Part shown: piece after piece, positions 1-3,000 of the stretch
Layout of the letters: each line of letters opens with the position of its first letter
Numbering within the stretch: position 1 is the stretch's first letter
Assembly (NCBI GenBank): GCA_038740245.1
Contig: JAVYLZ010000022.1
Location: forward strand, 1-10,411
Length of the DNA: 10,411 nucleotides
Direction: 5' to 3'
DNA from: Candidatus Micrarchaeia archaeon
GTDB taxonomy: Archaea > Micrarchaeota > Micrarchaeia > CAILAH01
Position numbers: made by a program

Positions 1-3000
1 AATGCATTCCTGTGGCTTTGTGGTGGCATGTTTGCCGTTTCACTGATTTCTGCAATAAGAAAGGAGAGGGAGCTTAGCAGAATAAAGGAAAAGATTGCAG
101 AGCTCTACTTAAATGATAGGGAAACTGTTGGGAAAGCGCTTTTTGATCTGTACGAGGAGTCCGGTGATGGCCTGAGGCACGAGCTCAGGGCGATTTCTGC
201 AAAGGCGAAATCTGCTAATTGATGTGCGGAGCGGCTGGGATTTGCAATGGACACTGGCTGCGAAAGTTAATTAAGATATGAAGCAAAAAGGTATTATGCG
301 CACAGAGATTCTTGTGGTTGCTGTTGCAGTCCTGCTTGCACTGATTTACATTGCCGCGAACAATCCTTTTGTTGTTGAGAAGACAAGGAGTGTTGTGTGC
401 CCGGAGGATAACATTGCAATACCTGAGCGTGTTTGCGGTGTTGATGACGCTGCATGCCGTGTTGAGGCTGTGCAGCACAAGAAAGCGTGCGACAACGTTG
501 TGCTGGTTGAGGAAAGCGCGCTTGGAACGTTCCGTGCGGAGATGCGCGAGTTTGGGGGCCAGTGCCTCATAACGATAAGCGCGGTGGACGGGTACTCGCA
601 GGACGTTGAAAACAAGACGATGGAGTGCGTAGTGCCCATAAATGAGTTAAGGCTTCTGTACGAGCAGCCCAAGGGCAAGCAGCTTTATGCAGTATTCCCA
701 TATTCCCCTGATTTGCTGGAGCGGTGCACCGGGGAGCTGAAGGACTCATTGTCCGTTGTTGTTAAGGAGATATACGAGAGCAAGTGCCCGTAATCTTTGG
801 GCGTTTTGGCACACCCGGCATAAGCTTTTTATAGGTTGCCCATCCTAAAATAGCTGCCAACGGCCATAGGGGGAGGGCCACACCTGGACTCTTACCGAAA
901 GCCTTTCTTTGGGATGCCAAGAAAGCCTTGGGAAAGAAGAAGGGCCGGGAACCCAGAAGTTAAGCCTCCCTACGGTGCTGCGTGTACTAACCTCTCGGTT
1001 GGGAAAGCACACTGCTGTTGGCACTTATATTCGCAAATTTTACCAATTTAATTTGGAAATCCCCAGTTTTTGCTTTTGCGGCACATGGCTTAGGCATGCA
1101 TGTTAGTTCATCCCTTCGCAGGCCCAGGCCGTGAGAGATTGTGAAGTATCCTGTATATGCGCTTCCAGTGGCTGCCCGTCCAGTATACCTTGCCGCATCC
1201 CCCGCACACCCAAAACTTCCTGTGCATCTTAAGCACCCTTTTGGGCAATTTCAGGGCAACCTCATTCTTTTTTGCCAGGCGCAAGGTGGCATTGCAGAGA
1301 GGGCATCGTATTATGGCCGGGAACCCAAACTGGCCGGTATACTGCCTTATTATGCGCAGCTGCCTCCTGAGTGATACTACCGGCAGGAGCATGCACTGCA
1401 CACCCTGCTTCTTGCATTTTGCCGCGAGCGCCCTGTCGCGCGTCACGATGGTACGCCCAGACTCCCGTGCAAGTGCAGCCAATCGGTCGTCGCCGCCACC
1501 TTCAAATATCTGCGAGTCAATGCCGGCCATGCGCGCCCATCGTGCAGTGTTCCTGAGCATCTCGTCAAATATGAGCTTCACGGCACATTAATGCACGTTG
1601 CAGCATTTTACTTTTGCGGCCGCTGCTGAAACTTATAAAAAGGTTATGCCTCTCAACATAACCATTCCGCTTTAATGGTGAATTTTCTTGGAGCAGGAAG
1701 TTAATCTTGATGTGGCGGCCGGCGCTGGTGCAGATGCTTCGGCAGCACCGGCACAGGTGCAGCAGGGCGAGCGCAAGAATGCGTTTATGGAGCTTACCGA
1801 GTCAATGAAGCAGAAGCGGCAGCTCCTGCTTTCAAAGATTGAGCGCATAAAGGCACTGCGCGACCAGCTTGCAGGCGCAAACAAGTCAAGCGTGCGCGCA
1901 CTCAAGAAGAAGAAGGAGTATCTTGAGTTCAAGATTTCAACGGAAGCGATAACGCTGGACAAGGAGCGCCAGCTTATGAAGTCCATCAAGGGCCTTGAAG
2001 AGGAGATAAAGAGCGCTGAGGGCAAGGAAGGCGAGCGCAAGAAGATACTCGCCGAGATAAAGGAGCTTGACGGCGACATTGAGAAGCTCAAAAATGAGCT
2101 TGACGAGATGAAGCTTGAGCTGATAAAGCTGCGCGAGGAGCGCAAGAAGCGCCGTGCAGAGGTGCGCAAGAGGCGCGAGGAGCGCGAGCAGAAGCCGCAC
2201 GCCCAGCAGTTCAAGAAGGAAGAGTTTGTGGTTAACCTTGAGGACATCGTGGTTATAAAGAAGAAGGAAGACAACCAGTAAGCGATTTTTTGTGGAGGGA
2301 AAGGATAGCCGGCAGGCACTTTGCGCTTTTTATGTTTCCCCCGAGAGGGCTTTGTGGCAATAAAAGGGAAAGACAGGCCCAACAAGCACGCCACGCTTTT
2401 TCTATGTTTTATTACTTTATGCCATATCCCTAAACATGCACAGGGCGTTCCTGCTTGACATTGGCATTGCCGAAGGCCAGCCCACTGAGGAGGGCGTGCG
2501 GCCAGCCGCAATAGAGCTGGTGCTCCGTGCAGGCGAACGGTTTTTTTTGAAGAAGGTGCGGTTCAGCCCATACTTTTATTTTGTCGGCAAAATCCCAAAG
2601 GAGCTTAAGGATGTCCCGCAGGTTGCATCAATTGAGGAAAAGGGGATGGTGCTCGGCGTTGAGCCCGTGAAGGCACACAAGATAGTGTGCTACAACCCGT
2701 CCGATATTCCAAAGCTGCGCGAGCTGTTCAATAAGTTCGGCACCTGCTACGAGGCGGATATACCATACGTGCGCAGGTATATGATTGACACGGGCGTGCG
2801 CGTGTTTTCTGAAATAGCATATGAAGAGGAGGGGGACGACTATATTGCAGTGAAATCCTGCGTTGAGGCGCACGGCCAGCTTAACGCCATGGCTTTTGAC
2901 ATAGAGACGTACAACCCGCACGGCACGCCGTCCCCGCGGGAGGATCCCGCGATTGTGATAAGCTACGCAACTGGGCCGCATTCCGCGCGTGCTATCACAT

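What a model noticed while it worked through the whole genome (the two positions that open the first line are those of the whole stretch)
856..1023. Mobile GGGAUGCC-loop hairpin; 52-nt insertion in 5S rRNA loop C
The only 5S rRNA gene is 168 nt instead of 115-116 because 52 nt sit in the tip of loop C, and the insert carries a hairpin (7-12-bp pyrimidine/purine stem, loop Y-GGGAUGCC-U) that recurs 13 times in this genome: in tRNA introns and trailers, this 5S gene and one mRNA leader, always on the RNA's strand. I read the hairpin as a lineage-specific mobile RNA module (or protein-binding site) that seeds insertions in structured RNA genes, and the 5S insert as the first archaeal 5S rRNA intron, or else a brand-new expansion segment on the central protuberance. 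New would be a 5S rRNA intron or expansion of very recent origin and a defined RNA motif tied to intron gain.
Evidence so far: Rfam 5S alignment: 55 nt where the model has 3, loop C. Six order relatives, incl. same-genus G005, have 115-116-nt 5S genes; alignment shows one clean 52-nt gap. Not an assembly slip: Logan contigs of 4 DNA runs from 2 studies carry the insert (X4 record 11 spans 860-1065, X2 records 5+6 cover both junctions), no contig joins across it. Borders can be drawn as a relaxed bulge-helix-bulge in the same register as the T-loop introns: ACCG-AA|A ... CGGG-AA|C (3 of 4 pairs) against TTCA-AA|G ... TGAA-AA|T, and insert start and end pair over ~10 bp. Insert shares the hairpin with tRNA introns on C24, C34, C40. 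Loop+stem rule finds 22 hairpins, 13 intergenic (12 in tRNA/5S loci, 1 upstream of g005 [...]
(Added by a program. Inside this text positions count along the whole contig: contig position 1 is position 1 of the stretch shown here. "Call 12" and the like, gene names such as g00115 and contig names such as C1 are that model's own, and its searches are not shown. The text may have been shortened before it was handed on; [...] marks where a part breaks off. The agent that wrote the report below was given it as the finding of a first reader that could run no searches.)

Follow-up and report, generated by a model that had tools for sequence, protein, structure and literature searches.

The report
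tRNA-derived intron inside archaeal 5S rRNA
The only 5S ribosomal RNA gene found in this tiny archaeon's genome is interrupted by 52 extra bases that resemble one of its own tRNA introns and carry the cut-site shape of archaeal introns, so they are likely spliced out; similar inserts occur in the 5S genes of several other archaeal groups, a gene for which I found no reported intron.

Summary
Confirmed and extended. The 5S gene (856-1023) holds a 52-nt insert (900-951) in loop C. Sister species G001 has a homologous 42-nt insert at the same site, with identical exons and covarying end pairs, so it is neither an assembly slip nor unique. The junctions fold into a relaxed bulge-helix-bulge whose cut restores a normal 116-nt 5S. 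All 23 distinct archaeal-type loop C inserts that I retrieved (three sites; Micrarchaeota, Aenigmarchaeota, Bathyarchaeia, Hadarchaeota, unnamed contigs) show this motif in register, and three decoys do not. Splicing by EndA and RtcB is likely (0.85) but unseen: no RNA run covered the locus. The insert matches a tRNA D-loop intron of the same genome at 40 of 52 bases. The GGGAUGCC hairpin is a real family-wide repeat. It is not predicted to fold in this precursor, is broken in G001, occurs antisense three times and has a mirror third arm (14 of 15), which fits a DNA triplex repeat better than an RNA module. No paper reporting a 5S intron was found. This scan noted 5S introns and triplex modules before, on other DNA.

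The parts
826..833 (+). TATA-like box of the stand-alone 5S gene (inferred)
   Evidence: Position; the 30 nt upstream of the gene are identical in G001, while DNA further up diverges
856..899 (+). 5S rRNA 5' exon (44 nt)
   Evidence: Rfam; 44 of 44 identical in G001
894..897 (+). Central helix H, exon strand (ACCG); pairs with 946-949
   Evidence: Three C-G/G-C pairs at probability 0.93-0.98, plus one A-G mismatch
898..900 (+). First 3-nt bulge; predicted 5' cut between 899 and 900
   Evidence: Only 1 of 16 registers passes the motif test
900..951 (+). 52-nt insert, predicted BHB-type intron at 46/47 (E. coli numbering, recalled)
   Evidence: 40 of 52 identical to the D-loop intron of the tRNA gene on C24
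901..910 (+). Intron helix h', 5' strand; pairs with 936-945
   Evidence: 10 pairs at probability 0.98-1.0; 10 pairs also in G001, with one two-sided and two one-sided changes
903..925 (+). Repeat module: pyrimidine arm 903-909, GGGATGCC loop 910-918, purine arm 919-925
   Evidence: the purine arm is missing in G001
932..938 (+). Third arm of the module, an exact mirror image of the purine arm (class II triplex geometry)
   Evidence: Mirror in 14 of 15 asymmetric modules
936..945 (+). Intron helix h', 3' strand
946..949 (+). Central helix H, intron strand (CGGG)
   Evidence: at the same site other lineages have CGGG, CGGT or CGAG, matching their exons at 3 or 4 of 4 pairs
950..952 (+). Second bulge, lying in an internal loop; predicted 3' cut between 951 and 952
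   Evidence: no outer helix directly adjacent, so HBh' type
952..1023 (+). 5S rRNA 3' exon (72 nt)
   Evidence: Rfam; the computed 116-nt product folds like the 5S of relatives, 91-94 of 116 identical
1688..2281 (+). 197-aa ORF that marks the orthologous 5S locus (synteny marker, not part of the element)
   Evidence: Found beside the 5S gene in 7 of 7 family genomes tested: G001 87%, G002 72%, others 51-65%

Best explanation
The 52 bases at 900-951 interrupt the only 5S rRNA gene of this assembly and are likely a tRNA-type intron, predicted to be cut out by the splicing endonuclease EndA and sealed by the ligase RtcB to give a normal 116-nt 5S rRNA. Shown: the insert, its sister-species homologue, the in-register motif across lineages, its likeness to tRNA introns of the same genome, and EndA and RtcB genes in the family. 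Inferred steps: (1) the precursor folds into a 4-bp central helix (3 pairs plus A-G) between a true 3-nt bulge and an internal loop, with a 10-bp intron stem (HBh'); (2) the three-unit, broad-specificity EndA of Micrarchaeota cuts after 899 and 951; (3) RtcB joins the exons and restores the conserved CCGAAC of loop C before uL5 binds. Origin (inferred, about 0.6): one gain in the ancestor of G000 and G001, copied at DNA level from a tRNA intron like the D-loop intron on C24. That intron ends in CGGC-AA and so pairs almost ready-made with the loop C sequence ACCG-AA, which made the insertion removable from the start. The GGGATGCC module is the cargo and trace of that copying. It is a likely DNA-triplex repeat, is not needed for splicing and has already decayed in G001.
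For: Only 1 of 16 registers passes the motif test, and it restores loop C; at positions 34-48 the product is identical to the insert-less gene of G004 (1 of 32 parsed genes). Motif pairs have probability 0.93-1.0; shuffled inserts pass at 0.0038. 23 of 23 distinct archaeal-type inserts pass: 5 at 46/47, 10 at 40/41, 8 at 36/37. In 22 the motif cut is also a best-scoring register; in L056 it scores 16.9 against 18.0. The 3 decoys (two bacterial duplications, one non-5S) fail or give a junk product. The intron strand of H tracks the exon (ACCG/CGGG against TTCG/CGAG; TCTC/GAGA against TCCC/GGGA). With each hairpin kept, the joint chance for 9 hand-picked unrelated inserts is 2e-8. Exact empty-site alleles exist among relatives of two other hosts (1 of 13 and 4 of 13), and inserts are patchy (4 of 27 and 1 of 25 long matches). 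In 5 of 5 other hosts the interrupted gene is the only 5S found, one of them a single-chromosome record, and all 5 have EndA. Exons are identical in G001 (44/44, 13/13) while the insert interior drifts. EndA is in 5 of 5 family genomes; G001's matches PDB 4fz2 over its whole length, E 4.5e-125. RtcB is in G000. uL5 looks ordinary. The C24 intron aligns at 40 of 52, score 61 against a shuffle maximum of 16.
Against: Splicing has not been observed. H has only 3 of 4 pairs, and for this insert alone that would arise by chance at 0.084. The 3' cut lies in an internal loop next to an A-G mismatch; the passages read show the ARMAN-2 enzyme cutting hBHBh' and hBH substrates, not HBh'. No EndA gene was found in G000 itself (the downstream neighbour of G001's EndA is missing too; 81% complete). 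Retained loop C expansions at 34-37 are considered sterically possible in bacteria, which weakens the case for the 36/37 class. The 23 inserts are not independent: about 9 unrelated groups, chosen by eye. Other tRNA introns are almost as similar (32-39 matches), so the donor is not pinned down. No reverse transcriptase or Y1 transposase was found in 5 genomes, so the copying machine is unidentified.
Confidence: 0.85

Rival explanations
1. Retained expansion segment: the insert stays in mature 5S rRNA as a helix projecting from loop C on the central protuberance, like the Halococcus insert.
For: Retained 5S inserts are proven in Halococcus morrhuae and Thermoanaerobacterium, and loop C inserts at 34-37 are thought to fit the ribosome. 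The rest of the 5S fold is kept in the predicted precursor. H is imperfect.
Against: It does not explain why 23 of 23 inserts have the 1-nt/6-nt offset and an intron strand complementary to the exon. The insert splits the conserved CCGAAC next to positions 42-43, which that paper calls blocked by uL5. The insert is homologous to tRNA introns that must be removed. uL5 shows no change.
Confidence: 0.08
2. Cut but not sealed, or only partly spliced: EndA nicks the good 5' bulge or both sites, and the 5S works in two pieces or as a mixed population.
For: The 3' site is the weak one: internal loop, A-G mismatch.
Against: RtcB is present. The three anticodon introns of this genome checked also have 3 of 4 pairs in H and must be fully spliced.
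Confidence: 0.04
3. Pseudogene: the insertion killed this copy and an intact 5S gene lies in the unassembled fifth of the genome.
For: The assembly is 81% complete. Bacterial 5S remnants with inserts are described.
Against: Exons and promoter region are identical between G000 and G001 while neighbouring coding DNA is 75-83% identical. It is the syntenic 5S locus of 7 of 7 family genomes. Five other hosts, one a single-chromosome record, show only the interrupted copy.
Confidence: 0.03

Closest known systems
Non-canonical BHB introns of Ca. Micrarchaeum (ARMAN-2) tRNAs, cut by the three-unit epsilon2 EndA (Fujishima et al. 2011, PMC3239211; passages read)
   Same: Same phylum, relaxed motif, short non-coding intron; the same enzyme type is in the sister genome
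   Different: The host is 5S rRNA, not tRNA; the motif is HBh' with a mismatch, a form not shown cut in the passages read
Short (<50 nt) hairpin-forming BHB introns of 16S rRNA genes in Thermoproteales (Jay and Inskeep 2015, PMC4496867; passages read)
   Same: Small ORF-less rRNA intron in a conserved loop, BHB junctions, patchy distribution
   Different: Those are in 16S (and 23S), often next to homing-endonuclease introns; that paper has no mention of 5S rRNA. Here there is no homing endonuclease in the insert, and the insert is homologous to tRNA introns
tRNA intron transposition in Thermoproteales (Fujishima et al. 2010; seen only as summarised in PMC4090602 and a 2026 bioRxiv preprint)
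   Same: Related introns at different positions of different genes, targets limited by the BHB requirement, a DNA-level route proposed
   Different: Here the jump crosses RNA classes (tRNA to 5S rRNA) and the moving sequence holds a defined three-arm repeat
5S rRNA expansion segments (Stepanov and Fox 2021, PMC7812874; Results and Discussion read, Table 1 and supplements not seen; Halococcus cryo-EM PMC7530397, search listing only)
   Same: An oversized single-copy 5S gene with a structured insert; bacterial cases in loop C
   Different: The only archaeal site there is 104.1-105 in halophiles, and it is retained; the text has no mention of bulge-helix-bulge, DPANN or Micrarchaeota. The inserts here sit at other sites with splice-motif geometry
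Class II intrastrand triplex repeats of bacteria, BoxC/PIT/TMeco (Holder et al. 2015, PMC4666352; passages read)
   Same: Order pyrimidine arm, purine arm, mirror purine arm; dispersed non-coding repeat
   Different: A/T-rich, fixed GGGATGCC first loop, concentrated in tRNA and 5S introns of one archaeal family; triplex formation not tested here

Membership tests
Archaeal BHB (EndA/RtcB) intron | 4-bp central helix between exon end and intron end | tested here: met
   3 of 4 pairs, probability 0.93-0.98; 4 of 4 in L076 at the same site
Archaeal BHB (EndA/RtcB) intron | 3-nt bulge closed by an intron helix h' | tested here: met
   Bulge 898-900 and a 10-bp h' with covariation in G001
Archaeal BHB (EndA/RtcB) intron | Strict hBHBh' with an outer exon-exon helix next to the second bulge | tested here: not met
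   0 outer pairs. The motif is the relaxed HBh' form, a recognised type. Strict forms occur at 40/41 (8 of 10 with 3 outer pairs) and in L184
Archaeal BHB (EndA/RtcB) intron | Cuts after the second base of each bulge restore the canonical host RNA | tested here: met
   116-nt product, normal fold, loop C identical to that of G004
Archaeal BHB (EndA/RtcB) intron | Host encodes a broad-specificity EndA and RtcB | tested here: inconclusive
   RtcB is in G000; EndA is missing from the 81% assembly but present in 5 of 5 family genomes, three-unit-like in G001
Archaeal BHB (EndA/RtcB) intron | Removal from the RNA observed | not testable with these tools
   No RNA holder listed; the one RNA run laid 0 contigs
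5S rRNA expansion segment | Insert retained in mature, ribosome-bound 5S rRNA | not testable with these tools
   No RNA or structure data
5S rRNA expansion segment | Self-contained fold that does not pair with the core and does not break conserved motifs (as described) | tested here: not met
   The insert's 3' end pairs with core bases 895-897 and splits CCGAAC
Class II intrastrand triplex repeat | 5' pyrimidine arm, purine arm, then mirror-image purine arm | tested here: met
   Mirror 14, direct 1, of 15 asymmetric arms; 13 of 30 perfect 6/6 mirrors against a mean of 4.6 when third arms are swapped among modules; copies are related
Class II intrastrand triplex repeat | Triple helix formed by the DNA strand | not testable with these tools
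   Needs CD, footprinting or polymerase-stop assays
MITE/REP-type element moved by its own enzyme | Cognate HUH (Y1) transposase or reverse transcriptase in the host | tested here: inconclusive
   0 of 5 incomplete genomes for PF01797 and PF00078; other enzyme families not tested

The most novel reading that the evidence does not exclude
5S rRNA is an overlooked, repeatedly invaded host of EndA-spliced introns across Archaea (at least four sites: 36/37, 40/41, 46/47 and loop D; at least four named lineages), and this locus records how one arose: a DNA-triplex-forming repeat carried a tRNA intron into loop C, where a four-base match made it removable at once.
Probability: 0.45. Interest if true: 0.85.

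Novelty: new variant of a known kind. Interest (0 to 1): 0.73.

Why it matters
Archaeal BHB introns are described in tRNA, 16S/23S rRNA and one mRNA; five literature searches gave no report of one in 5S rRNA. If spliced, EndA and RtcB become essential for 5S maturation in several archaeal phyla, and oversized archaeal 5S genes cannot simply be called expansion segments. The locus also gives a short, datable case of intron gain with a candidate donor class in the same genome and empty alleles in relatives. That makes the open question of how archaeal introns move testable, with a 168-nt transcript and one enzyme. Interrupted 5S genes score low or are truncated in Rfam scans, so they are probably under-annotated.

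Tried and rejected
RNA evidence: no RNA holder listed; the one same-study metatranscriptome laid 0 contigs. This says nothing about expression or splicing.
Assembly slip: rejected, because G001 has a diverged homologue.
Target-site duplication (the 3-nt GAA repeat at both ends): not needed; three other inserts at the same site end in TT or AG yet keep the motif.
Other Micrarchaeota with loop C inserts: none among 400 sampled. For 10-40 nt inserts there were 7 hits, none a 5S gene by eye, against 13 control hits; for 39-69 nt only G000. G001 was not in that sample, and a similar pattern finds only 26 of 35 known 5S loci. G085, flagged unpublished, enters only these counts and those.
Automatic proof that each module lies in a tRNA intron: excision plus ARAGORN confirmed only the C3 and C10 introns among 16 modules and Rfam found one partial tRNA; the other assignments are by eye.
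Viral carrier of the module: 0 matches in the viral contigs.
Reverse transcriptase or Y1 transposase: 0 of 5 genomes.
The promoter scan covers bacterial promoters only and was uninformative.
A negative control on proven retained expansion segments (Halococcus, Thermoanaerobacterium) could not be fetched.

Full report
OBSERVATION. Rfam places a 5S rRNA at 856-1023, 168 nt, with 55 nt where the model has 3. The window is contig C22 of a 688-kb, 81% complete assembly. Its sister genome G001 is titled Micrarchaeota (L052 is the same stretch as L036). Among 60 relatives, 56 gave 57 matches, all 112-117 nt, and 4 gave none. One of the four, same-genus G001, does have the gene at a contig end, with a 42-nt insert at the same site. 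Its exons are identical to the window's (44 of 44 and 13 of 13 bases available), as are 30 bases of promoter region, while neighbouring coding DNA is 75-83% identical. A 197-aa ORF lies beside the 5S gene in 7 of 7 family genomes tested and is 87% identical in G001, 72% in G002 and 51-65% in the rest. The simplest history is one gain after the split from G002, which has no insert. Artefact and pseudogene are both unlikely.

ANATOMY. The insert can slide over four registers that give the same product, and exactly 1 of 16 registers forms the archaeal splice motif: central helix ACCG (894-897) with CGGG (946-949), bulge AA|A, a 10-bp intron helix (901-910 with 936-945), and second bulge AA|C. In the predicted ensemble three central pairs have probability 0.93-0.98, the intron helix 0.98-1.0 and the GGGAUGCC hairpin 0.0 (triples are not modelled). 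G001 keeps a 10-bp intron helix with one two-sided and two one-sided changes and has lost the hairpin's purine arm. The motif is relaxed: one A-G mismatch and no outer helix (HBh'). Cutting after 899 and 951 gives 116 nt that fold like the 5S of relatives (91-94 identical bases), with a loop C identical to that of G004. The site is 46/47 in E. coli numbering, which I recall rather than computed.

COMPARATIVE TEST. A pattern demanding 15-75 extra bases in helix III/loop C gave 12 loci among GTDB genomes and 21 among metagenome contigs; its insert-less form matches 24 of 35 known loci, so this is a lower bound. With the window, and after dropping 8 duplicates, 26 distinct sequences remain. Two are bacterial internal duplications and one is not a 5S gene. 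All 23 others pass the motif test (at least 3 of 4 central pairs, at least 3 intron pairs) in a single register that restores loop C: 5 at 46/47, 10 at 40/41 and 8 at 36/37. In 22 that register is also a best fit to a profile of normal genes; L056 scores 16.9 against 18.0. Named hosts are Micrarchaeota, Aenigmarchaeota, Bathyarchaeia, Hadarchaeota and one record titled Thermococci; the metagenome loci are unnamed. The intron strand follows the exon: TTCG pairs with CGAG where ACCG pairs with CGGG, and TCCC with GGGA where TCTC pairs with GAGA. Keeping each hairpin and randomising only those four bases gives 0.084 for the window alone and 2e-8 jointly for nine inserts that I picked as unrelated (pairwise local scores 7-18). 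In 5 of 5 hosts checked the interrupted gene is the only 5S found and EndA is present. Relatives mostly lack inserts (4 of 27 and 1 of 25 matches are long), and some carry the exact empty allele. A relative of the Aenigmarchaeota host has a strict motif around a 62-nt insert in loop D.

MACHINERY. EndA was not found in G000, but 5 of 5 family genomes have it. G001's 394-aa protein matches PDB 4fz2 end to end; that 4fz2 is the ARMAN-2 three-unit enzyme is recalled. That enzyme cut strict and relaxed hBH substrates in vitro (PMC3239211, passages); HBh' was not shown there. RtcB is in 4 of 4 genomes, G000 included. uL5 of G000 aligns normally with those of G002 and G005 (3 of 4 loci aligned). Stepanov and Fox call positions 42-43 blocked by uL5 and list 104.1-105 as the only archaeal expansion site; their Table 1 and supplements were not seen.

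THE REPEAT. A stem-and-loop rule finds 16 modules in G000. By eye, 12 are in tRNA introns (9 sense, 3 antisense on C37), 2 in a tRNA trailer, 1 in this 5S gene and 1 intergenic; ARAGORN confirmed only two of these introns. The exact-loop pattern occurs in 9 of 9 family genomes, 13 times in G084 of another family, and singly in 3 of the other 111 genomes (4 control hits). Following a lead from earlier scan notes, I tested the purine tract after the hairpin: it mirrors the purine arm in 14 of 15 asymmetric modules and repeats it directly in 1 (one search gives 11 against 4 of 21 by a cruder score). The copies are related, so these are not independent events. This is the order of class II intrastrand triplexes, and the paper read states that purine-motif triplexes do not form in RNA. 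With the antisense copies and the decay in G001, this points to a DNA-level repeat, not a functional RNA hairpin; triplex formation itself is untested. The 5S insert aligns over its whole length with the D-loop (15/16) intron of the tRNA gene on C24 (40 of 52; score 61, shuffle maximum 16), and five other single-module introns give 32-39 matches. That intron ends in CGGC-AA, one base from the 5S insert's CGGG-AA, so an intron of this family would be spliceable on arrival in loop C. No reverse transcriptase, Y1 transposase or viral copy was found.

VERDICT. A likely EndA/RtcB-spliced intron (0.85); retained expansion 0.08, incomplete splicing 0.04, pseudogene 0.03. It works like a non-canonical Micrarchaeum tRNA intron or a short 16S hairpin intron and meets the testable features of the relaxed BHB class; observed removal is the missing one. 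Searches for a 5S intron in print found none: 0 papers; 2 listed; 19 listed; 30 of 76 listed; 0. From those lists I read passages of PMC7714728, PMC12918454 and PMC12558985, none of which showed a 5S intron; subscription papers are not covered. This scan had noted probable 5S introns and triplex-type modules before, in other genomes; those notes are leads, not support. What this locus adds is the two together, a sister-species comparison and a cross-phylum register test.

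Noticed in passing
L184:1443-1504 (minus strand; G462, relative of the Aenigmarchaeota host): 62-nt insert in loop D/helix IV of the 5S gene with a strict hBHBh' motif (4 central, 6 inner, 4 outer pairs): a fourth 5S intron site. Rfam reports only a truncated 90-nt match.
   Followed up: partly
L186:1470-1510 (minus strand; G458): Probable 41-nt insert in loop D of the 5S gene; the best candidate has 4 central and 3 outer pairs (hBH), but the register is not unique.
   Followed up: partly
G000 C24:5594-5766 (minus strand): ARAGORN calls it tRNA-Pro; I read it as tRNA-Val(UAC) with two 50-nt introns (15/16 and 37/38), both of the repeat family. The spliced 5' part equals that of the tRNA-Val(GAC) on C2.
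   Followed up: partly
G000 C37:about 2940-3200 (plus strand): tRNA-Glu-like gene whose 149-nt T-loop intron holds three tandem modules in antisense orientation, with a variant loop.
   Followed up: partly
G000 C40:about 5590-5790: tRNA-Arg-like gene whose anticodon intron has two modules with the same three-arm layout but a different loop, so the layout, not the GGGATGCC loop, is the constant.
   Followed up: no
G000 C23:about 5230-5290 (minus strand; L088): The intergenic module follows about 65 nt with a terminal stem and C/D-box-like words behind a TATA-like box; it may be the trailer of a small RNA gene rather than an mRNA leader. No Rfam match.
   Followed up: no
L119 (G001 C56) and L096 (G006 C2): Modules sit flush behind apparent stop codons of protein genes, like REP elements.
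   Followed up: no
G084 (L094, L106, L114, L122): 13 copies of the module in a genome of another family whose genus-mates have 0-1, hinting at horizontal spread or a local burst.
   Followed up: no
G002 C49:39632-42307: RtcB lies in a 965-aa open frame, with the domain split by about 450 aa, as an intein would do.
   Followed up: no
L055, L058: Two actinobacterial 5S genes with 67-nt internal duplications, probably assembly artefacts.
   Followed up: no
window 1108-1581 (-), 2436-4820 (+), 4915-10411 (+): Ordinary neighbours: Mut7-C RNase-domain protein, family B DNA polymerase, Rpb5-like subunit and what appear to be further RNA polymerase subunits; the 171-aa ORF at 278-793 has no Pfam match.
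   Followed up: no
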